Of a stretch of DNA of 40,346 nucleotides, positions 452 to 33,544 are shown piece after piece (position 1 is the stretch's first letter; each line of letters opens with the position of its first letter). The stretch is from the UHGV virus genome UHGV-0260710; one strand, given 5' to 3'. Origin of the DNA: a virus. The position numbers were made by a program, and so were the translations under genes. The notes beneath the pieces were generated by a model, which was not told the origin of the DNA, did not search any database, and saw only the letters and a program-made list of their open reading frames with translations.

Positions 452-474
452 AGTCCCTATAGTGATAGTTAAGG
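452..474 (-). promoter_or_regulatory. Phage RNAP promoter (phi13-like), CCTTAACTATCACTATAGGGACT
   Basis: Family motif between gp12 stop and gp13 start; flanked by a perfect 10-bp inverted repeat GGGCCTATAG (444-453) / CTATAGGCCC (480-489). Confidence 0.7.
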
Positions 475-4999: not shown

Positions 5000-5022
5000 T
5001 CTCCCTATAGTGATAGTTTAGT
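5000..5022 (-). promoter_or_regulatory. Phage RNAP promoter (phi10-like), ACTAAACTATCACTATAGGGAGACC, +1 ~5005
   Basis: Best match to family consensus including GGGAGA initiation region; immediately upstream of capsid gene. Confidence 0.8.
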
Positions 5023-6005: not shown

Positions 6006-6028
6006 TGTTCCTATAGTGATAGTTTAGG
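6006..6028 (-). promoter_or_regulatory. Phage RNAP promoter (phi9-like), TAAACTATCACTATAGGAACACC
   Basis: Consensus motif overlapping the 3' end of the portal gene, as T7 phi9 does. Confidence 0.7.
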
Positions 6029-8826: not shown

Positions 8827-8849
8827 AGTCCCTATAGTGATAGTTTAGT
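8827..8849 (-). promoter_or_regulatory. Phage RNAP promoter (phi6.5-like), AAACTATCACTATAGGGACTTT
   Basis: Consensus motif in intergenic region. Confidence 0.7.
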
Positions 8850-15406: not shown

Positions 15407-15429
15407 CATCCCTAAGGTGATAGTTTAGG
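15407..15429 (-). promoter_or_regulatory. Variant phage promoter (TAAACTATCACCTTAGGGATGG; two mismatches at -4/-3)
   Basis: Conserved upstream half of the promoter family; upstream of the HNH 3.8-like gene. Confidence 0.45.
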
Positions 15430-17792: not shown

Positions 17793-17815
17793 CTGTCCTA
17801 CAGTGATAGTTTAGG
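17793..17815 (-). promoter_or_regulatory. Variant phage promoter (TAAACTATCACTGTAGGACAGA; -3 G)
   Basis: Family motif overlapping the gene 2 3' end, upstream of SSB gene (T7 has phi2.5). Confidence 0.55.
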
Positions 17816-18642: not shown

Positions 18643-18665
18643 TTGTCCTATAGTGATAGCTTAGG
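18643..18665 (-). promoter_or_regulatory. Phage RNAP promoter (TAAGCTATCACTATAGGACAAC)
   Basis: Family motif immediately downstream of the early terminator. Confidence 0.65.
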
Positions 18666-18741: not shown

Positions 18742-19224
18742 TTATAATGAGTCTCTTAAGGCTACCGCCTCGGCTATGGTCTTGGCATATAGGACCACTC
18801 GCTCTCCGTTGACCACCTTCTTGATACAGTAAAGCTCTCGACCTTTCACCTTTGAGATGTGACGTTCTCCGGTAGTGTTGGTGGACATCTGGCCTTTGTT
18901 CTGGTTGTTCTCTGAGTGAGACACCAGTCGCAGGTTGGACATCCTGTTATTAGAAGGGTCCCGGTCAATGTGGTCAATCTCCATGCCGTCTGGTATGGGA
19001 CCATATGTCATCTCCCATATTACCCTATGAACCTGTAGATGCTTGCGGCCCCACGGTGTCCTGACGTTTATCGTCCAATAGCCGGACTTCTTCTTACTGC
19101 CTACCTTTCGTCCAGAGTGGAGGGCCAGCCCGGAGGCCGACCTTTCGTCCACTTTAAATCTTGACTGTAGGATTATCCTCAGTTCCACGCCACTGGTCGA
19201 ACGAGGGATGTCGCAATGAGCCAT
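18742..19224 (-). CDS. HNH homing-endonuclease-like protein (extra relative to T7)
   Basis: 160 aa; [41 protein letters not shown] core; 5' end overlaps the ligase 3' end (an in-frame GTG at 19150-19152 is an alternative start). Confidence 0.8.
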   Translation of the reverse strand: MAHCDIPRSTSGVELRIILQSRFKVDERSASGLALHSGRKVGSKKKSGYWTINVRTPWGRKHLQVHRVIWEMTYGPIPDGMEIDHIDRDPSNNRMSNLRLVSHSENNQNKGQMSTNTTGERHISKVKGRELYCIKKVVNGERVVLYAKTIAEAVALRDSL

Positions 19225-20623: not shown

Positions 20624-20693
20624 GGTGTAGCTCCTGGTTGAGTGAGTTAGGGTTAATCATGAAGGCCACGACTTTGAGTCATGACCTTGAGTC

Positions 20694-20716
20694 TAATCCT
20701 ATAGTGATAGTTTAGG
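20694..20716 (-). promoter_or_regulatory. Phage RNAP promoter (TAAACTATCACTATAGGATTAG)
   Basis: Family motif upstream of gene 1.1, as T7 phi1.1A/B. Confidence 0.7.
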
Positions 20717-23997: not shown

Positions 23998-24020
23998 TGA
24001 GTCCTATAGTGATAGTTAAG
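23998..24020 (-). promoter_or_regulatory. Phage RNAP promoter directly upstream of the RNAP gene (TTAACTATCACTATAGGACTCA; +1 ~24003, 73-nt leader)
   Basis: Family motif between the last small early ORF and the RNAP ATG; leader contains an 11-bp direct repeat AAGTGAAAGAC x2 and an AAGGA RBS. Confidence 0.6.
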
Positions 24021-25709: not shown

Positions 25710-25924
25710 AATTATATCCTCTCAAAGTTGTTTGTGTATGTTAGTGACTATCAGTCAGGACCCTGAGCCGCTCAAGTCAAGCCCGTCTCGCGGTAGACTC
25801 AAGGTCCTGTAGTTAATCACTATCGGCGCACATTAAGAGTTTATCCAGATTGTTAAAGAGCATTCCCTTCAGTCAGAGGACTTCAGGTAGACCATTTCAG
25901 TGTTGGTCGTCACCGTTGTGTCGA

Positions 25925-25962
25925 TGTGGTACAGCTTACATCTTATCGTCACTACTTGTCAA
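25925..25962 (-). promoter_or_regulatory. Candidate host sigma70 early promoter (A2/A3-like): TTGACA-18nt-TAAGCT
   Basis: -35 TTGACA at 25957-25962; flanking sequence resembles T7 A2/A3 (AAGTAGACAGCCTGATAAGTC..CGAAAAACAGG upstream; GTACCACAT...CCAACACTGAAA downstream), from memory. Confidence 0.4.
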
Positions 25963-26067
25963 CTGCTTTCTGTCATCTGCCTGTTTTTCGTATGACTTAT
26001 CAGGCTGTCTACTTAACCGGGATGACCCGGCGTCTTCACTATCCGGTTATTGCCGTGTCGTGTTGAC

Positions 26068-26103
26068 GGAAGCTATTAAGCCATAGTCTAGACCTATAGT
26101 CAA
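26068..26103 (-). promoter_or_regulatory. Candidate host sigma70 early promoter (A1-like): AT-rich UP region, TTGACT-17nt-CTTAAT
   Basis: -35 TTGACT at 26098-26103 with 17-bp spacer; first promoter-like element downstream of the end-repeat arrays. Confidence 0.4.
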
Positions 26104-26224
26104 TAGGTAATTTGAAATAATATTGATTGAGCTATCGTCGGCCCCATGGTGTAAGAGGATATAGTCTTTGACTAACATGTCTTAGACTTTAAGTCTATAT
26201 CCTTGTGTCTATTAACCGTTGGTC

Positions 26225-26480
26225 TCTGACTGTAGGTGTTGGTGTCTTATGGTTGAGACTGTAGGTTGTTAGACTGTAGGTTGTTAGAACTGTGGTTGTG
26301 ACTTATGGTTAGTGAGACTGTAGGCTGTAGGCTGATGGTTGTGACTTAGGGTCTGATACAGATAGAGACTCAGAGGCAGACCCATAGTCCCAACCTATCG
26401 TCCTTCCCTAAGCCATAGCCACAACCTATCGTTGACCTAACGTCTTGACCATCGGTCCAACCTTATGATAGACTGGGGGT
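26225..26480. repeat. Arrays of short degenerate repeats characteristic of T7-group genome ends
   Basis: 26225-26355 reiterates (G)ACTGTAGG(T/C)TGT / CTTATGG / CTTAGGG units (CCTACAG-type on minus strand); 26380-26475 carries CCATAG / CCTATCG / CCTAAG-type units in the opposite orientation; non-coding. Confidence 0.6.
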
Positions 26481-27117
26481 AGGGCCTTTGGTCTGGACTG
26501 AAAGAGGGCCTATGGGGAGACTTGAGGTTCTTGAACTGTGAGATGTGGTCTCAAACTTTTGGTCCAAAACTCATCGAAGACTGTAGGACACAGCCACTGT
26601 AGGTCAAGGACCGTAGGTCAGGCGACACTAGGATAGACCAATAAGTAGGATGACCCTAAGTGAGCTTCTCTTAAGGTGTTACCTAAAGTCCTTGACTACA
26701 GTAGCTAAGGTCAGTAGAGTAGCGTCAGCTATGAACTGACCTTAGGTCTTCCGCTCATGAATCGTTACCATGATTGCATTAATTGCACTGAGAGACCAGA
26801 GAGCATACGAGAGTCTCGACCCACCCGACCCACTGACTTCCAGCAGTAACGCCAGAAGCAAGTAGAACAGCAGCAAGAAACCTGTATGTAGCTCGATTGG
26901 TCGCCAGAGCTTTAAGTACAGCTTTGGTCTTTGCCATATGCTACATACCTCCTGTATCTATGGTCGGTGACTATCTGTATTGGAGGGATTATGATTAATA
27001 TCACCCTCCTTCCATCGGTGCAAGCCTTAGGTAAGAACTCGGAGTCTGCCTCCTAAGGTCTTGCATAAAGTCTGCATATGTATATTCACTACAGTAATAC
27101 TATAAGTAACCGGGGGT

Positions 27118-27140
27118 CTTCCCTATAGTGATAGTTAAGT
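27118..27140 (-). promoter_or_regulatory. Phage RNAP promoter near the right genome end (phiOR-like), TTAACTATCACTATAGGGAAGACC
   Basis: Family motif downstream of the last gene, reading toward the genome end. Confidence 0.65.
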
Positions 27141-27263
27141 CCAAACTCCTTGTAAAACAGTAGGTTAGACTGGTAGTCACGCATGGTAACTACCTGAGTT
27201 TTTATTCACATATAGCGACATAGTATTCACCATGAAGCTCCCTTCCCTTGGTATTCCTCCAGT

Positions 27264-27612
27264 CTATTGCATCCTGTAAGCTATCGGTAGCATATCTATA
27301 GGTAACACCGTCCTTCGTCTGGCTAGTCTTCCACTTACCTGAACACCTCTTAATACTGTGGGCCAGCACCTCATGTCCTGACTCTTTCCTCTTCTTACAG
27401 CATTAACCGAGTTCTGAGACTTTGTGGCAAGCCGTAGGTTTTCTCTACGATTGTTCAACTTGTTCCTGTCAATATGGTCAACAACCATTCCATCAGGCAC
27501 TGGTCCGTAGAACATCTCGTACACTAAGATGTGCACAAAATGCTCATGGACCTTGTAGTATTTACCGACCAGACCCGACTATACAGCCGGGAACGCTATC
27601 GTCGTACTTCAT
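27264..27612 (-). pseudogene. HNH endonuclease paralog split by a frameshift (remnant or requires recoding)
   Basis: GTG-initiated 90-aa ORF (27264-27536) holds the HNH core HILVYEMFYGPVPDGMVVDHIDRNKLNNRRENLRLA; 15 codons in another frame upstream (MKYDDSVPGCIVGSGR, with TAGGAGGATAA-ATG RBS) plus the open HNH frame (..GKYYKV..) align to the N-termini of the intact paralogs (..[13 protein letters not shown]..); coordinates +/-1. Confidence 0.45.
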
Positions 27613-27623
27613 TTATCCTCCTA

Positions 27624-29390
27624 TTAGTGGAACGTAATGTATGACCCTAGTCCCAGCTCGTCGTCCGTATCGTGAGTTACCCGGACCCCATTGTCCCAGA
27701 ACTCAGTGTGGATGGACTCGAAGCCTTTCCGTGGGTTCTCCATCTGTTCCTCCAGCCACTCCTCAGTGACTTCACGTTCGCCCTTGTTGGCATCCTTAGC
27801 CATAGACTCAACGAAGAACTGTACACCGATAGCCAGCGCATCAAGTCGGTCATCGTGTGCCAAGGCGCCACGTTCACGAGAGATACGTGTCATCTGGTAG
27901 AAGAGAGAGTAGATAGGGTTACGAACACCATCCTTATCAGAGGCCGACTGGTAGTCTTGGACGATAGCAGCAGCGTTAACGATAAGTCGGTGAGACCCCA
28001 TGATAGGCTCCAGAACGTCACAGATGCGTAGTTCTTTCTGCCCCTTACTCTTCACTTCAGTTACAGCCGCAGGATGTATACGGGCCGCTACAGGCTTGAA
28101 TAGCTCAAGGTACATACCATCACCGAAGTTACCCTCAATGACGTATTCGTTGACCTTCCACTTACGACCAATCTTAGCCAGTGCTTCAAGCGTAGAGTCT
28201 TCATAACCACCACGCATGCCGCCAACTTCCATAGCGAAGATGTAGCCGTTGAGCTGGTACAGTACCGCATATCCAGTTTCATCCTTACCACGACCACTAG
28301 GGTCAATGACCAGAATCTTCTGGGTGTACGAACTGAAGGCAGAACCTACAGTCTGATACGTGTGGTATGAGTCTCCCATGAGTCCAACGTTAGGAACGTC
28401 CTCACGCTTGTTCTGAGGGTTTGGCAGCCATTGGTAGACCATTGGGCTGGACGCTGGGTCCAAGTCTGCTACGATAAGGTCACGGAGCTTCAGAGGGTAC
28501 TTCTCGGCATCACTCAGGTTCGGGTTAAGCATGAACTGTAGAGCGAAGCCAGCTTTACCGTAGGACAGCTCACGTTCCTTCAGGTCAGTATCGTCGAATC
28601 GAACTTCATCGGTCGGACGCCAGTAGTAGGCCTCAGGGTCCTCTTCAAGCTCTGCCTGAAGCATCGGTGCCAGACGGTAGCCGTAAGACTGCCAGTCCTT
28701 CTTATCACGTGGATAACGAGCAGGCCAGATAGTAGTGGTGTACCCACGGCCTTCCAGCTCACGATACAAGGTCATCTCGTTCTGAGGAGTACCCAGATAG
28801 ATGATTGTACCTCCCGGCTTCAGGATAGCGTCGAACTCTTTCACAAGCTCTGATAGACGGTCTCGTGCAGCCTGAGTCGCTGAGTTGTTCGGAACCTCCA
28901 CGTCATCGGCAATCAGGATGTCAGCACGACTACCAGTCAACTGACCAGTGATACCAACGGACTTAACCGAAGGTGAGTGGTCTGGCTTGGCGGGTCCAAC
29001 GTCAAAACTGATAACCGCATCTCGCTGTCCCTGCTTAGGTTTGAGTTCCTGAAGCTGAGGCATGAGGTCGATGATTCGCTTGATGAAGATGGAGTTAGCA
29101 TCGGCTCGTTCCTTTGATGCCGACACAATCATGAACTTCAAGTCTGGGTTGTTCCATAGCTTCCAGACCACAAAGCCACAGGTCAGAAACGACTTGCCAA
29201 TACCACGGAAAGCCTGAAGGATGAAGCGGCGATTATCCCCAGCAGCCAGCTTCTTACACATATCTATCTGGCAGCGGGTTGGAACCGGAAGGCTTAGCGC
29301 TTTCCAGAGAACGAAGATGAAGAACACGAAGTCGTCCTGCATCCTTTGGGTCATTTCTGCCTGTCTTTCAGCTGGTGTTTTCTTAGACAT
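27624..29390 (-). CDS. gp19: Terminase large subunit (gp19)
   Basis: 588 aa; near-collinear with T7 gp19 ([124 protein letters not shown]). Confidence 0.95.
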
Positions 29391-29823
29391 AGAGTCCCTC
29401 CAACATTAGGTCCCGGACAGCGATAGCCTCCTCTAAAGTGGGACGTGTTGTGCGCATACGGACTCCCTTACGCATAACCTCGATGGCGTAGCCGTTCTGG
29501 TGGAACGATACGTTCTTAACTCCAGTCTTTGAGTCAGAATGACCTGAGGTGTTGCAGGAGTTCGCGCTTGAAGTAACTAGCCGGAGGTTGTCCAGCCTGT
29601 TGTTAGTTCGGCAACGGTCGATGTGATCAATCTCCATGCCTTCTGGTATGGGACCGTTGGTTAGCTCCCAGATTACCCGATGAGCCAGCAGGAGTCCATG
29701 ACGTCTAGTTCCTACCTGATAATACCCGTGGTTTCCAACACACCCAACGTCCTTACCTGAACGAAGTGACTTCAGGCCAGACTTACTGGACTCATCATAA
29801 GTATACGAATCACTGAGCATCAT
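29383..29823 (-). CDS. HNH homing-endonuclease-like protein overlapping the terminase start
   Basis: 146 aa; [41 protein letters not shown]; 3' end overlaps TerL ATG by 8 nt; absent at this position in T7. Confidence 0.85.
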
Positions 29824-30263: not shown

Positions 30264-30373
30264 AGGTGCCCTCCCGGTTTATCAGATTTCACGTAGAGTC
30301 TCCTCCACTAGTTAGTGTTAACCATAAAGGCCACTACATATAGTAATGACCTTGAGTCTAACACTTAAGAGAT

Positions 30374-30828: not shown

Positions 30829-30973
30829 AAAACCTCCAGTTTAAAGCGGGTCGTCCGTGACCCAAGTTGTTACCATACGTTGGTCAGCGTGTAGTTAGCC
30901 TCTACCTCCACAACCTTCGATGTCGACATTCCGTTTTGATGGTAAAACTAACCACGCCGAAGCTGGGTCTTTG

Positions 30974-33475
30974 TTAAGAGTTTAAAATAGAAGAATATTT
31001 AGTAACAACATTACCAGATACAGGTGTCGAATCTATAGCAGGTCTTGCTGTTGCCCTGATATTTAGCCCAATAACCCCTGAATATGCTACTGACTGCGTT
31101 CCCGCATAACGGTAACATGCAAGAGTTCCTCCGGACTTATGAGTCCACTCAACGTTTCCATTTGCTTGAAACAGAAAGATATTAGCAGATGTTGTAGTTG
31201 TCATGTCTCCTGTGGAAACTACATTTACTGGCTCAGTGGTGGCAACTTTGATCAAGTGATACCCGGCAGGGCTTGTTACACCTCCACTCAACGTCAGATT
31301 TACATTCGTTTTACGCAATGCAATCAAACTACCATAAGCATTGCACACAATACCTCCTAAGCCACGAATTGTGGCGGATGGTAACTCTGTATCTTCCGTT
31401 AAATTTATACTTCCTGCGTTGGTATAAACGTCGTTTATTTCAAGCATTCTGCAAATTTTGGCAGCATGTTTCAAAGATTTTAGACCACGCGCTCCATTGA
31501 AACCCCAATTTTCATCGTTACCGTTAACTGGGTCGATGTATAACGTTGAAGGTGAAACGCCTGTAACTTCATTAACTAAATCCCATTTCCCAAGTTTTCC
31601 GTACTGGAACTGGCCATTGTTAGGATTTCGTATGTTGACTACAGCTCCAGAGTTTATGCCGTCAAGGAACCTGTAACCGTTGAACATCATGTAACCGTGA
31701 ATATCTACAACACTGCGACCCTTAACGCAGTTCTTGACGTAGACCACTGAACTGTTTGCTATACTTCCGTCTTGAATGAAAAGACCATTTAGACGGATGT
31801 CAGCGTCTGAGTTGATAATATAGAAACAATGTTTCGCCTTACCACCCGTGGCTTCCATGTGACAACCGTCAACCTTAAGCCCACCGTTACTGTTGGCATC
31901 CCCTTGGTTAACATACATGAATGAGCAGGTTTCTGTTACACAATACCTGAACTGCACAGAACTGCGTCCGTACTGTGTAATTGCGACATCGCCGGTTTCG
32001 TCAAAATCTTCCGGTTTAAAAATTACCTGTTCTGAATAAGTTGAATCCTGTCCAAGTCGAGCAATGTAAGCGTTTTTCACCTCAGAGCCGCCGTTTTGCT
32101 CGTAGAAAACAGCACCTTGAGTCTTGTATAGAATCTTAGGTGTTGTGTGAACACTGCCCCAAGCAATACTGTGAAGCATACCAACCTTTGGAATTCTGGC
32201 GGTTGATGCTGTGCTTCCTGGTGTGTTCTCACCAATGCTTAGATTGCTAGTTGTGCATCCTGCGGCACCTAACCAACGAAGCCCTAACAATGTTCCTGGC
32301 TTTGTGATAATAGACAGGTTTTCAATATCGATATGGCGAGCGCCTGTTCTTACTTCACCACTATCAATTTGTGAGCCTGTTGGCAAAAACATTGGGTCAG
32401 AGTTTAATGACCATGTTGACCCAGATTTAAGATAGACATACGTACTAACAGCAGCCATGTTACCTTCACCAGAAGGCGGGTTGAAGTAAAAACCTTGCTG
32501 TACGATTCGGCGGAAATAAGAGTAACCGGGCTGGACAATCTGCACGCCGGGCGGGATAAAGATTGTCTCTGTGTGCATGTACAGGCCGCGCAAAACAACA
32601 CGCTTTGCTACTACATCCAAGTGTGGGTTAAGTTCTGTTGCTGTGTCTGTAAATGAAATCGGCATGTCGTTGATGTATTTAAACATAGCCTTTAATGCCT
32701 GTGTATCGTCAGAAATCCCATCACCAATAGCTCCGAATTGCTCAGGGGTTACATCATTTAATACATCTGCTAATTTACCCGATGGATTAATTCCGATTAA
32801 TTCAGCCCCGTCATTATTCATTAGGCTTCCTCTAAGTGATGCATCACCAACACTAATCCACGCACCAAGACCAACACCACCAGCAGTTTCAGGAGTTGAA
32901 CCCTCTGGAACGTTCTTTGGAAGCGTACCATCCCAGCGGTAATACTCACCATCCTCTTCCCATAGCAGGACCTCGTTCCATGTTGTAACGTTGAAGCCTT
33001 TCTCGAAGGAGCGACGGGTAATATAGCCAACTAGACCAGCTGCCTTGATACGCTCAGCGATTCGGCGTGCTTCGTCCTCGCTATCCTTAGCGTTGCCAGC
33101 AGAGCTACCAGCAGCATCGGCATATTCCTTCGCTAAGTCAACAGTTTGGTCTCGACCTTCTTCTGCAATATGGATAGCCTGAAGCTCTGCATTGGTCAGG
33201 TCACTAGCTGTCAACACTGAACCATTCCTGAAGTCTACCACTAAGTCAGTTCCAGTCTGACGGTGAATACGAACGATGTCGAAACCTGATTGGTCAACCA
33301 ACATCTCAATAATCGTTGGATTAAGGAATCGGTAATCTCGACCGACTTCCAGTACACGGTTCAGGGTAGGGTTAGAGCTATTCACCAGCGTAACAACAAC
33401 AAACGTTCTGGCTAGGTAGTCGAACTCAATCCTGTACTGAGTGTTTCCTGAAGGGAATTGTGTAATCGTGGACAT
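30974..33475 (-). CDS. gp17: Tail fibre / tail spike (gp17): T7-like N-terminal adaptor plus C-terminal pectate-lyase-like (beta-helix) depolymerase-type domain
   Basis: 833 aa; first ~150 aa align to the T7 gp17 N-terminus (EFDYLAR.FVVVTL, DYRF, DGS.L.A.DL..A..Q..H.AEE.RD.T.D); rest unrelated to T7, contains [19 protein letters not shown], typical of pectate-lyase-3 tailspikes; 3' half visibly AT-rich. Confidence 0.85.
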
Positions 33476-33521
33476 TATGCCTCCTTTGTGATTTAAACGG
33501 AGACCTATGGTAGCGCCTCCC

Positions 33522-33544
33522 GTTTCCTATAGTGATAGTTTAGT
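33522..33544 (-). promoter_or_regulatory. Phage RNAP promoter (phi17-like), TAAACTATCACTATAGGAAACG
   Basis: Family motif overlapping the gp16 3' end, upstream of the tail fibre gene as in T7. Confidence 0.7.

What the first reader, a model, noticed from the sequence alone, without database searches (positions are those of the whole stretch)
30974..33475. Chimeric tail spike: conserved gp17 adaptor fused to a low-GC depolymerase-like domain
Only the first ~150 residues resemble the T7 tail fibre (the part that docks onto the tail). The remaining ~680 residues are unrelated to T7 and carry a GDGxxDDT-type motif ([19 protein letters not shown]) typical of right-handed beta-helix pectate-lyase-like tailspike enzymes. 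The DNA for the distal part is visibly more AT-rich than the genome (for example 31381-31440 is ~33% GC versus ~50% overall). That is consistent with a horizontally exchanged receptor-binding module, probably targeting capsule or O-antigen polysaccharide.
Basis: partly seen in the sequence, partly recalled or inferred. Interest (0 to 1): 0.55.

Follow-up and report, generated by a model that had tools for sequence, protein, structure and literature searches.

The report
Kayfunavirus tailspike with swapped-in TSP1-like domain
This is the tailspike gene of a T7-like (Kayfunavirus) phage whose conserved tail-docking front end has been joined by recombination to a foreign, AT-rich sugar-cutting beta-helix domain related to tailspike TSP1 of phage CBA120; it is a clear but ordinary example of how phages swap host-recognition modules.

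Summary
ORF 30974-33475 (minus strand, 833 aa) is gp17 of a Kayfunavirus genome. Its first ~217-225 residues are about 95% identical at DNA level to 162 phage records, and similarity then stops abruptly. This anchor has a T7 gp17 N-domain plus a Tail_spike_N domain, so the conserved part is longer than the ~150 residues proposed. The remaining ~1.85 kb (window ~30953-32824) is a cassette with no DNA match in 50,697 phage records or 5,426 E. coli genomes. It has the lowest GC of any same-length stretch in the window (43.3% vs 50.1%; GC3 0.377 vs 0.555), while GC2 is normal. The protein is 42% identical over its full length to CBA120 TSP1 (PDB 4OJ5), and the model superposes on it (TM 0.67-0.74). 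The mutationally supported catalytic Glu pair is conserved. Close copies (64-97%) occur in metagenomes on at least five other phage backbones, including P22-like prophages, one in E. coli and one (host unidentified) beside a gtrABC operon. The crossovers coincide with the conserved motifs described by Pas et al. 2023. It is most likely an O-antigen glycosidase of unknown serogroup specificity. This is a new member of a known kind, of modest interest.

The parts
33526..33543 (-). Phage-RNA-polymerase promoter (CTAAACTATCACTATAGG) upstream of the tailspike gene. It overlaps the end of the gp16 gene and belongs to the Kayfunavirus backbone.
   Evidence: It is one of 11 copies of this 18-mer (up to 3 mismatches), all in the same orientation, with 0.02 expected by chance. 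The sequence was read.
33480..33486 (-). Shine-Dalgarno sequence AAGGAGG, 4 nt upstream of the ATG at 33475.
   Evidence: Read directly from the sequence.
33026..33475 (-). aa 1-150: T7 gp17-type N-terminal tail-attachment domain plus helical neck (anchor, part 1).
   Evidence: Pfam PF03906 matches aa 10-116 at E 1e-15, 58 bits against a cutoff of 25. PDB sequence hits include T7 gp17 N-termini (7boz, 8dsp) and a Kayfunavirus-like tail spike, 9vvr, near-identical (about 95%) through aa ~217. DNA is ~95% identical to 162 phage records.
32825..33025 (-). aa 151-217: Tail_spike_N domain (equivalent to D2/TD2 of CBA120 TSP1). This is anchor part 2, still backbone DNA.
   Evidence: Pfam PF18668 matches aa 154-211 at E 5.6e-19. 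It aligns to TSP1 residues 97-163. It lies within the ~95% identical Kayfunavirus stretch.
32838..32954 (-). [quoted passage not shown] It is the likely homology patch for the 5' crossover.
   Evidence: It is the only DNA similarity to CBA120 tsp1: 76% over 117 nt at gene-nt 522-638. It is also shared with siphoviral carriers L008 (69%) and L010. It corresponds to motifs one and two of Pas et al. 2023.
32800..32824 (-). 5' crossover interval (gene-nt 652-676, aa 218-226, LMNNDGAEL).
   Evidence: Backbone identity to LM33_P1 ends at gene-nt 676 and to Bas105 at 645. Homology to the L015 module carrier (90.6% nt) begins at gene-nt 652. The junction was checked in a nucleotide alignment.
32681..32737 (-). 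[19 protein letters not shown] (aa 247-265): N-terminal cap motif of the beta-helix.
   Evidence: Position. It is conserved in all module homologues. The same short motif recurs in unrelated bacterial beta-helix proteins. In the distant relative P0023, Pfam PF12708 maps to the corresponding N-terminal part of the module.
31616..32803 (-). aa ~225-620: catalytic beta-helix subdomain, equivalent to TSP1 D3 (residues 166-562).
   Evidence: Alignment to 4oj5. TSP1 domain limits are from PMC3966878. The model has high pLDDT and repeated short strands here, and it superposes on 4oj5.
31853..31933 (-). Codons of the catalytic glutamate pair E515 (31931-31933) and E541 (31853-31855), plus H539 (31859-31861). 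Supporting residues outside this span are W439 (32159-32161), Y470 (32066-32068) and D371 (32363-32365).
   Evidence: They map to TSP1 E456, E483, H481, W380, Y411 and D313 (alignment). W439, Y470, E515, E541 and D371 are invariant, and H539 at least 90% conserved, in 21 sequences down to 26% identity. The TSP1 E456A:E483A mutant loses halo activity (PMC7506556).
31433..31615 (-). aa ~621-681: non-helical D3-D4 linker region (TSP1 563-623).
   Evidence: Alignment to 4oj5, with domain limits.
30977..31432 (-). aa ~682-833: C-terminal beta-helix subdomain, equivalent to TSP1 D4 (624-769). The stop codon is at 30974-30976.
   Evidence: This is the most mosaic part among carriers.
30944..30969 (-). 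Decayed terminator-like hairpin plus T-run directly after the stop codon. It marks the 3' border of the cassette; backbone identity resumes at 30953.
   Evidence: The alignment shows consensus AAACCCCGCTTCGGCGGGGTTAGTTTT in CBA120, L010 and L007. Folding gives -12 to -18 kcal/mol in those carriers but only -6.1 here, no better than shuffles. Backbone similarity to LM33_P1 resumes at gene-nt 2523. It corresponds to motif three of Pas et al..

Best explanation
The gene encodes the single tailspike (gp17) of a Kayfunavirus (T7-like podovirus).

**Anchor.** Residues 1-~217 form the genus-conserved anchor: a T7 gp17-type tail-docking domain, a helical neck and a Tail_spike_N domain.

**Receptor-binding module.** Residues ~226-833 are a horizontally acquired module of the CBA120 TSP1 type. 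By homology it should form a trimeric right-handed parallel beta-helix (D3, linker, D4). The inferred active site lies in the inter-subunit groove. It would use two adjacent glutamates, E515 and E541, for retaining, probably substrate-assisted, hydrolysis of a glycosidic bond next to an N-acetylated sugar.

**Function.** The spike is inferred to bind and cleave the host's O-antigen so that the virion can reach the outer membrane. The host is most likely an E. coli of an uncommon, unidentified O serogroup.

**Origin.** The module entered the Kayfunavirus backbone as a ~1.85-kb cassette. [quoted passage not shown] The other lies in a terminator-like hairpin just after the stop codon. The backbone supplies expression signals: its own phage-RNAP promoter and RBS. 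The cassette still carries the codon composition of a lower-GC gene pool.

**Shown versus inferred.** Shown here: domain homologies, junction positions, the composition anomaly, conservation of the catalytic residues, and the module's presence on other phage backbones. Inferred: trimer formation, enzymatic activity, O-antigen as the substrate, and host identity.
For: **Backbone.** Window positions 1-25000 are 93-94% identical to many Kayfunaviruses. The neighbouring genes are gp16, holin, gp18, an Rz-like gene and the terminase large subunit.

**Anchor.** Pfam PF03906 and PF18668 both match. DNA is ~95% identical to 162 phage records, but only over gene-nt 1-653.

**Cassette borders.** The 5' crossover lies at gene-nt 652-676 and the 3' border at about gene-nt 2523. 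The flanking conserved motif and hairpin are seen, and match the motifs described in PMC10408124.

**Foreign composition.** The module is the lowest-GC 1.85-kb window in the genome. Its GC3 is 0.377 against 0.555 +/- 0.054 for other genes, with normal GC2.

**Fold and family.** Sequence match to 4OJ5 is 42% identity at E 1e-165. PHROG 18484 matches at E 2e-171. Kuttervirus TSP1 proteins match at 41-42% over 100% of the module. The AF2 model is confident from aa 240 onward, and Foldseek places it on 4OJ5 at TM 0.67-0.74.

**Catalysis.** E515, E541, W439, Y470 and D371 are invariant and H539 nearly so. In TSP1, the E456A:E483A mutant abolishes halo formation.

**Substrate class.**
- TSP1 recognises Salmonella O:21 LPS.
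- Module copies at 87-95% aa identity are the tailspikes of P22-like prophages.
- One of these prophages is integrated in an E. coli chromosome, with host flank 100% identical to E. coli.
- Another is followed directly by a gtrABC O-antigen glucosylation operon.

**Ongoing exchange.** A second Kayfunavirus lineage (P0005/L014) carries a mosaic module. Some of its segments are 99-100% identical to the P22-like prophage version.
Against: - No biochemical or host data exist for this protein or for any member of its 64-100% clade.
- Identity to the only characterised relative (TSP1) is 42%, so specificity cannot be transferred.
- The module and the gtrC linked to it are absent from all 5,426 complete E. 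coli genomes and from all GTDB species representatives. The E. coli host assignment therefore rests on one metagenomic prophage context.
- Kayfunaviruses also infect Salmonella, Enterobacter, Klebsiella, Providencia and Hafnia.
- In TSP1 the E456Q:E483Q mutant kept activity, so the mechanism is not fully settled.
- The donor lineage and the direction of transfer are not determined.
- The anchor itself also has lowish GC3 (0.43), so part of the gene's AT bias is not explained by the cassette import.
Confidence: 0.85

Rival explanations
1. The same chimeric tailspike, but the module degrades a capsule (K antigen, colanic acid or another exopolysaccharide) rather than O-antigen.
For: Several Kayfunaviruses carry capsule-specific spikes; for example, K1F-type endosialidase phages share the same anchor (rows H25-H27). 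Among the weaker fold hits are a colanidase (6e0v) and Klebsiella capsule lyases. TSP1 produced a halo on E. coli O157 without cutting O157 antigen, so some non-O-antigen surface polysaccharide may be a substrate.
Against: The only characterised family member targets O:21 LPS. The closest carriers are P22-like prophages, a group whose spikes track host O-antigen (PMC10408124). One of them carries gtrABC, an O-antigen-modifying operon, immediately next to the spike. The capsule-enzyme fold hits have TM of only ~0.2-0.25.
Confidence: 0.1
2. The distal domain is a non-enzymatic receptor-binding beta-helix that only binds polysaccharide.
For: No activity has been measured for this clade. The first TSP1 paper found only sugar-binding sites remote from any proven active site.
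Against: The Glu-Glu pair and the surrounding W, Y, H and D cluster are invariant or nearly invariant across 21 homologues down to 26% identity. Mutating the pair to Ala abolishes TSP1 halo formation.
Confidence: 0.04
3. There was no recent horizontal transfer. The distal domain is an old, vertically inherited and fast-evolving part of this Kayfunavirus lineage, and its low GC reflects amino-acid composition or local mutational bias.
For: Tailspike distal parts are the most variable genes in the genus. The anchor also has below-average GC3.
Against: Similarity to siblings changes from 94% to none within ~25 nt at both borders. The module is 91% nt-identical to copies on unrelated backbones (L015, L016). 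The deficit is in GC3 and GC1, not GC2. In other carriers the module GC is also ~0.42-0.45, and it matches the backbone only in low-GC phages.
Confidence: 0.01

Closest known systems
CBA120 TSP1 (orf210; PDB 4OJ5/4OJL/4OJO/4OJP), the Kuttervirus tailspike specific for Salmonella O:21 LPS
   Same: The two proteins are homologous from the Tail_spike_N (D2) domain to the C-terminus, at 42% identity, E 1e-165 and TM 0.67-0.74. They share the D3/linker/D4 architecture. The catalytic E456/E483 pair and its neighbours are conserved. The same conserved DNA patch lies upstream and the same hairpin downstream.
   Different: TSP1 has a D1 domain that docks onto TSP4 of a branched four-spike complex in a myovirus-like phage. 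Here the anchor is a T7 gp17-type tail-docking domain on a podovirus with a single spike. At 58% sequence divergence the module forms a separate clade (64-100% identity within the clade, ~41-46% to the O:21 clade), so it probably has a different sugar specificity. There is no DNA similarity within the module itself.
Kayfunavirus gp17 tailspikes with other receptor-binding domains (LM33_P1 O25b spike, K1F-type endosialidase, Bas105, PE3-1; solved example 9vvr)
   Same: The anchor is ~95% identical up to aa ~217. The genomic position, promoter and neighbours are the same, as is the breakpoint region at gene-nt 635-676.
   Different: The distal domain is entirely different. None of the 162 anchor-sharing phage records contains this module.
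RBD-swap cassettes with conserved flanking motifs across lytic E. coli phage genera (Pas, Latka, Fieseler and Briers 2023, PMC10408124)
   Same: The architecture is the same: a conserved anchor-end DNA motif (their motifs 1 and 2) and a terminator-like motif after the stop codon (their motif 3) flank an exchangeable RBD. Kayfuna-, Kutter- and Lederbergviruses take part in the exchange.
   Different: This RBD subtype is not among their 15 serogroup-assigned subtypes, according to the abstract list. Here the 3' hairpin has decayed. An SU10-like podovirus and further siphoviruses join the exchange network.
P22-like (Lederbergvirus) prophage tailspikes with the head-binding domain PF09008
   Same: P0004, P0006 and L016 carry the same module at 85-95% aa identity. 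The module is in the usual P22 position beside the integrase, and in L016 beside gtrABC.
   Different: The N-terminal anchor is a different type. Homology begins at aa ~230 without the Tail_spike_N domain or the conserved 5' motif, and the downstream hairpin differs.

Membership tests
T7 gp17-type tail fibre/tailspike N-terminal anchor (Pfam PF03906) | Sequence match to the N-terminal tail-attachment domain above the curated threshold | tested here: met
   58.2 bits against a cutoff of 25.2, over aa 10-116. PDB sequence hits to T7 gp17 N-termini 7boz and 8dsp have E values of about 1e-16 to 1e-17.
T7 gp17-type tail fibre/tailspike N-terminal anchor (Pfam PF03906) | Genomic position between the gp16 internal core protein and the holin/gp18 genes of a T7-like late operon | tested here: met
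   The gene order is a 1295-aa protein syntenic with the LM33_P1 internal (core) protein, the tailspike, a T7-family holin, DNA_Packaging_2, an Rz-like gene and the terminase.
Kayfunavirus (Autographiviridae, Studiervirinae) genome | Genome-wide nucleotide similarity to recognised members | tested here: met
   Identity is 93-94% over 90-94% of window positions 1-25000 to many Kayfunavirus records. Formal species demarcation was not computed.
Tail_spike_N domain (PF18668; TSP1 D2/TD2) | Profile match above the curated threshold | tested here: met
   68.4 bits against a cutoff of 25, over aa 154-211. It aligns to TSP1 residues 97-163.
CBA120 TSP1-type tailspike glycosidase | Full-length homology of the receptor-binding region (D3, linker, D4) | tested here: met
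   phmmer E 1e-165, with query aa 151-829 aligned to TSP1 residues 97-767. tblastn gives 41-42% identity over 100% of aa 218-833.
CBA120 TSP1-type tailspike glycosidase | Right-handed parallel beta-helix fold | tested here: met
   The AF2 model has pLDDT of about 85-95 over aa 240-830. Foldseek top hits are 4oj5, 4ojp, 4oj6 and 4ojl at TM 0.65-0.74, and all other significant hits are beta-helix proteins. This rests on a prediction, not an experimental structure.
CBA120 TSP1-type tailspike glycosidase | Adjacent catalytic glutamates (TSP1 E456/E483) with His481, Tyr411, Trp380 and Asp313 | tested here: met
   The equivalents E515, E541, Y470, W439 and D371 are invariant, and H539 is at least 90% conserved, in the 21-sequence alignment. 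The mapping comes; residue roles come.
CBA120 TSP1-type tailspike glycosidase | Homotrimer with the active site at the subunit interface | not tested
   Only a monomer was modelled. The trimer is inferred from homology to 4OJ5.
CBA120 TSP1-type tailspike glycosidase | Endoglycosidase activity on an LPS O-antigen | not testable with these tools
   This needs purified protein and host LPS. Only contextual support is available.
Pectate-lyase-like beta-helix (Pfam PF12708, Pect-lyase_RHGA_epim) | Profile match above the gathering threshold | tested here: not met
   There is no PF12708 hit for the window protein even at E <= 1. P0003 scores 16 bits, below the cutoff of 27. Only the distant relative P0023 passes, at 29.4 bits, over the corresponding N-terminal part of the module. 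The protein shares the fold class and the cap motif, but it should not be filed as a pectate lyase. The related enzyme chemistry is hydrolytic.
Exchangeable RBD cassette flanked by conserved motifs (Pas et al. 2023) | [quoted passage not shown] | tested here: met
   Identity is 76% over 117 nt to CBA120 tsp1 and 69% to siphovirus L008, with no other DNA similarity to those genes. The paper's logos were not available, so equivalence to their motifs 1 and 2 is judged by position and by which genera carry the motif.
Exchangeable RBD cassette flanked by conserved motifs (Pas et al. 2023) | Conserved terminator-like motif directly downstream of the RBP stop codon | tested here: met
   The motif is recognisable by alignment. 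In the window it carries two stem mismatches and folds no better than shuffled sequence, at -6.1 kcal/mol.

The most novel reading that the evidence does not exclude
The TSP1-like module, bounded by the conserved anchor-end patch and the hairpin, may be a self-contained portable host-range cassette. It would circulate among at least six phage architectures: T7-like, P22-like, SU10-like, two siphovirus types and Kuttervirus. Its spread might be actively promoted by the HNH_3 homing endonucleases found near it in three of these contexts. It would also define a new O-antigen specificity for a rare E. coli serogroup not represented among complete genomes.
Probability: 0.1. Interest if true: 0.55.

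Novelty: new member of a known kind. Interest (0 to 1): 0.27.

Why it matters
The locus adds an uncharacterised receptor-binding subtype to the Kayfunavirus tailspike repertoire. It is documented at nucleotide resolution as a cassette swap whose both crossovers fall on the conserved motifs previously proposed as recombination hotspots.

The module links lytic T7-like phages and temperate P22-like prophages of E. coli, with segments 99-100% identical between them. This illustrates how a lytic phage can pick up a host-matched spike from a resident prophage.

In practice, the exact junction (aa 218-226) is a ready-made splice point for engineering Kayfunavirus host range. The spike could also serve as a typing or depolymerase reagent once its serogroup is found.

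It does not change any concept: modular tailspike exchange is well established.

Tried and rejected
**DNA searches for a donor**
- blastn (word 11) of the module against 50,697 phage records found nothing.
- The same search against 5,426 E. coli genomes found nothing. No cultured donor could therefore be named.
- Megablast of the P22-like prophage tailspike (L001) against E. coli genomes matched only the head-binding anchor, never the module.

**Scans of GTDB species-representative genomes**
- The scan with the module protein found no relative.
- The scan with the alignment found only the Tail_spike_N domain and the generic EQFGAxGDG cap region in assorted bacteria. No full-length module turned up.

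**Attempts to infer the serogroup**
- The gtrC linked to the module in L016 has no match in E. coli complete genomes.
- The host flank of L001 identifies E. coli but not its O type.
- A literature search for an E. coli counterpart of the Salmonella O:21 antigen gave nothing usable.

**Other checks**
- Filing the protein as a pectate lyase was rejected because PF12708 does not hit it.
- The generic sigma-70 promoter and intrinsic terminator scan of the gene region was at background level. The relevant signals are the phage-RNAP promoter and the decayed hairpin.
- The N-terminal 150 residues of the AF2 model are low confidence, because the alignment was built from module homologues. That part of the model was not used.
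Full report
**1. The observation**

The ORF exists as described, on the minus strand at 30974..33475, and encodes 833 aa. The quoted motif [19 protein letters not shown] lies at aa 247-265, window 32681-32737. Window 31381-31440 is exactly 33.3% GC. That 60-nt example is weak evidence, because 0.7% of all 60-nt windows are that low.

The larger claim is robust.
- The distal 1848 nt have 43.2-43.3% GC against 50.1% for the window.
- This is the lowest of all windows of that length (mean 0.501, SD 0.021).
- At codon level, aa 218-833 have GC3 of 0.377. The mean for genes of at least 150 aa is 0.555 with SD 0.054, and this gene has the lowest GC3 of all 33 genes.
- GC2 (0.437) is not low. The AT-richness is therefore synonymous and not a by-product of beta-helix amino-acid composition.

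**2. What the window is**

The window is a complete, circularly permuted, reverse-complemented T7-like genome.
- Positions 1-25000 are 93-94% identical to many Kayfunavirus records.
- The tailspike lies downstream of the 1295-aa gene that corresponds to the LM33_P1 internal (core) protein. After it come a T7-family holin, gp18, an Rz-like gene, an HNH endonuclease and the terminase large subunit.
- A phage-RNAP promoter (CTAAACTATCACTATAGG) lies at 33526-33543. It is one of 11 copies, with 0.02 expected by chance.
- An AAGGAGG ribosome-binding site precedes the ATG.

**3. Anatomy of the protein**

- Pfam finds Phage_T7_tail at aa 10-116 and Tail_spike_N (PF18668) at aa 154-211.
- Megablast against 50,697 phage records gives 162 hits. 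All of them cover only gene-nt 1 to 635-653, at ~95% identity. The genus-conserved anchor is therefore about 217 aa with two domains, not ~150 aa.
- The remainder (aa 218-833) has no DNA match in phages or in 5,426 complete E. coli genomes, even with blastn word 11.
- As protein, it is 41-42% identical over its whole length to CBA120 orf210 (TSP1) and its Kuttervirus orthologues.
- It matches PDB 4OJ5 at E 1e-165 and PHROG 18484 at E 2e-171.
- An AlphaFold2 model built on 21 homologues is confident from aa 240 to 830, with pLDDT of about 85-95.
- Foldseek places the model on 4OJ5 and its related entries at TM 0.65-0.74. Every other significant hit is a beta-helix tailspike or glycosidase.

**4. 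Enzyme signature**

Chen et al. proposed a catalytic cluster for TSP1 at the subunit interface: Glu456, Glu483, His481, Tyr411 and Trp380 (PMC3966878). Greenfield et al. later showed that the E456A:E483A mutant abolishes halo formation. They favoured a substrate-assisted retaining glycosidase mechanism (PMC7506556).
- In this protein the equivalent residues are E515, E541, H539, Y470 and W439. D371 corresponds to Asp313 (mapping from the alignment).
- In a 21-sequence alignment reaching down to 26% identity, E515, E541, Y470, W439 and D371 are invariant. H539 is at least 90% conserved.
- Pfam's pectate-lyase-like model PF12708 does not hit this protein. It only hits a distant relative, over the corresponding N-terminal part of the module.
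- The short cap motif recurs in many unrelated bacterial proteins.

The protein is therefore "depolymerase-like" in the sense of a TSP1-type hydrolase, not a lyase.

**5. The module elsewhere**

A search of the 5.8-billion-protein collection with aa 218-833 found the identical protein on 40-kb metagenomic contigs, which represent the same phage (P0001). It also found a clade at 64-97% identity fused to different anchors:
- other Kayfunaviruses (P0002 at 97%, P0005 at 86%);
- P22-type head-binding domain PF09008 (P0004 at 87%, P0006 at 85%);
- an SU10-like podovirus (P0007, L007);
- two siphovirus types (P0008, P0010);
- a PF18668-containing 854-aa protein (P0003 at 93%).

A second clade, at ~41-46% identity, contains TSP1, Citrobacter and Salmonella prophage spikes.

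The P0004 gene sits in a P22-like prophage next to its integrase. The host flank (yfdC-mlaA-fadL) is 100% identical to E. coli chromosomes. IMG/VR holds another P22-like element, L016. Its spike module is 95% aa and 91% nt identical to the window, and it is followed directly by gtrA, gtrB and a GtrII-type gtrC.

Three lines of evidence favour O-antigen over capsule as the receptor:
- TSP1 is specific for Salmonella O:21 LPS.
- P22-like prophage spikes are known to correlate with host O type.
- An O-antigen glucosylation operon lies next to the L016 spike.

The serogroup could not be identified. Neither the module nor that gtrC occurs in any of 5,426 complete E. coli genomes or in GTDB species representatives.

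**6. Junctions**

The 5' junction is defined as follows.
- Backbone identity to LM33_P1 (94%) ends at gene-nt 676, and identity to Bas105 ends at 645.
- Homology to the closest foreign carrier on a non-Kayfunavirus anchor (L015, 90.6% nt) starts at gene-nt 652.
- Homology to the P22-like and SU10-like carriers starts at gene-nt 689-691.
- The 5' crossover is therefore within gene-nt 652-676, window 32800-32824, aa 218-226.
- Immediately upstream lies a ~117-nt stretch (gene-nt 522-638) encoding ...[14 protein letters not shown]. It is the only DNA similarity between this gene and CBA120 tsp1 (76%), and siphoviral carriers share it too.

The 3' junction is defined as follows.
- Backbone identity resumes 21 nt after the stop codon, at window 30953.
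- This point lies inside a hairpin plus T-run that is conserved after the stop codon in CBA120, L010 and L007.

These two flanking elements match, by position and by which genera carry them, the "motif one/two" and "motif three" that Pas et al. 2023 proposed as cross-genus recombination hotspots. As those authors reported, the P22-like prophage copies lack them.

**7. Composition and origin**

Module GC and backbone GC in each carrier:

| Carrier | Module GC | Backbone or flank GC |
|---|---|---|
| Window (Kayfunavirus) | 0.434 | 0.50 |
| L014 (second Kayfunavirus) | 0.448 | 0.50 |
| L001 (P22-like prophage) | 0.448 | 0.47 |
| L016 (P22-like prophage) | 0.443 | 0.455 (whole locus) |
| L015 (P0003 carrier) | 0.426 | 0.44 |
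| L007 (SU10-like podovirus) | 0.432 | 0.43 |
| L010 (siphovirus) | 0.419 | 0.47 |
| L008 (siphovirus) | 0.478 | 0.49 |
| CBA120 tsp1 | 0.396 | 0.40-0.43 |

- The module is low-GC nearly everywhere and matches its backbone only in low-GC phages.
- This fits an origin in a lower-GC phage gene pool with incomplete amelioration in Kayfunavirus.
- The donor and the direction of transfer remain undetermined.
- The module is itself mosaic. The second Kayfunavirus lineage (P0005/L014) has segments 100% aa identical to P22-like P0004 and P0006, and 99-100% nt identical to L001 over gene-nt ~1500-1950.
- Exchange between lytic Kayfunaviruses and resident P22-like prophages is therefore recent and recurrent.

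**8. Mechanism**

Shown versus inferred:
- Shown by sequence: a backbone-encoded promoter and RBS drive a chimeric gene.
- Shown by homology: the anchor docks onto the T7-like tail.
- Strongly supported by homology and by the model: the distal module is a TSP1-type beta-helix with an intact catalytic cluster.
- Inferred: it forms a trimer, cleaves an O-antigen glycosidic bond by the Glu-Glu (probably substrate-assisted) mechanism, and thereby determines host range.
- Inferred from one prophage context: the host is an E. coli of an uncommon serogroup.

**9. Comparison, novelty and verdict**

What this locus adds:
- Functionally and structurally, it combines two known parts: a Kayfunavirus gp17 anchor and a TSP1-family receptor-binding domain.
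- The phenomenon, and even the flanking motifs, are already published (PMC10408124; also PMC8432352 and PMC11721090 for Ackermannviridae).
- What is new is this particular combination. It is an RBD clade absent from cultured phage records and from complete E. coli genomes, placed on a Kayfunavirus.
- Also new is the breadth of backbones that share the module.

It is a new member of a known kind. The interest score is about 0.27.

Noticed in passing
window 29383-29823 (-), and 18923-19038: A 146-aa HNH_3 endonuclease gene sits between the Rz-like gene and the terminase large subunit. It is an insertion relative to LM33_P1 and to the second Kayfunavirus lineage L014. A 116-nt direct repeat at 78% identity links it to 18923-19038, which suggests a second HNH paralogue. 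Homologous HNH_3/AP2 genes (40-45% aa) lie immediately upstream of the related tailspike in P22-like prophages L001 and L017, and 3.5 kb upstream in siphovirus L010.
   Followed up: partly
window 30944-30969; L011 3330-3360; L010 10250-10280; L007 10490-10520; L012 6185-6215: The terminator-like hairpin after the tailspike stop codon is strong in CBA120, L010 and L007, at -12 to -18 kcal/mol. In both Kayfunaviruses it has decayed to background stability: -6.1 kcal/mol in the window and -3.7 in LM33_P1. This may be because the T7-like late transcript must read through into the holin and terminase genes.
   Followed up: partly
L016 7843-10530: A P22-like prophage (IMG/VR UViG 2703718849) carries the closest non-Kayfunavirus copy of the module in a known phage context, at 95% aa identity. 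It has a gtrABC O-antigen glucosylation operon between the tailspike and the integrase. Its gtrC has no match in 5,426 complete E. coli genomes.
   Followed up: partly
L014 10001-12502 compared with L001 10001-12202: A second Kayfunavirus lineage carries a mosaic version of the module. Its central and C-terminal segments are 99-100% nt identical to the E. coli P22-like prophage spike. This indicates very recent exchange between lytic and temperate phages.
   Followed up: yes
window 456-473, 5004-5021, 6010-6027, 8831-8848, 15411-15428, 17797-17814, 18647-18664, 20698-20715, 24003-24020, 27122-27139, 33526-33543: There are eleven copies of the phage-RNA-polymerase promoter core (CTWAACTATCACTATAGG on the coding strand), with 0.02 expected by chance. 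One of them lies directly upstream of the tailspike gene.
   Followed up: yes
window 32825-33475: The genus-conserved anchor (aa 1-217) also has GC3 of only 0.43, against a gene mean of 0.555. The whole tailspike gene, not just the imported cassette, is compositionally atypical.
   Followed up: no
window 25795-27642: This is the second-lowest-GC stretch of the window, at 45%. It lies between the terminase gene and the early genes, where the physical genome ends and early region of a T7-like phage would be. The window is a circularly permuted assembly in reverse orientation.
   Followed up: no
window 30310-30373 and 20645-20708: A 64-nt direct repeat at 80% identity occurs in two intergenic regions. 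One copy lies between gp18 and the Rz-like gene. The other ends in a phage promoter. It may be a shared regulatory or RNA-processing element.
   Followed up: no
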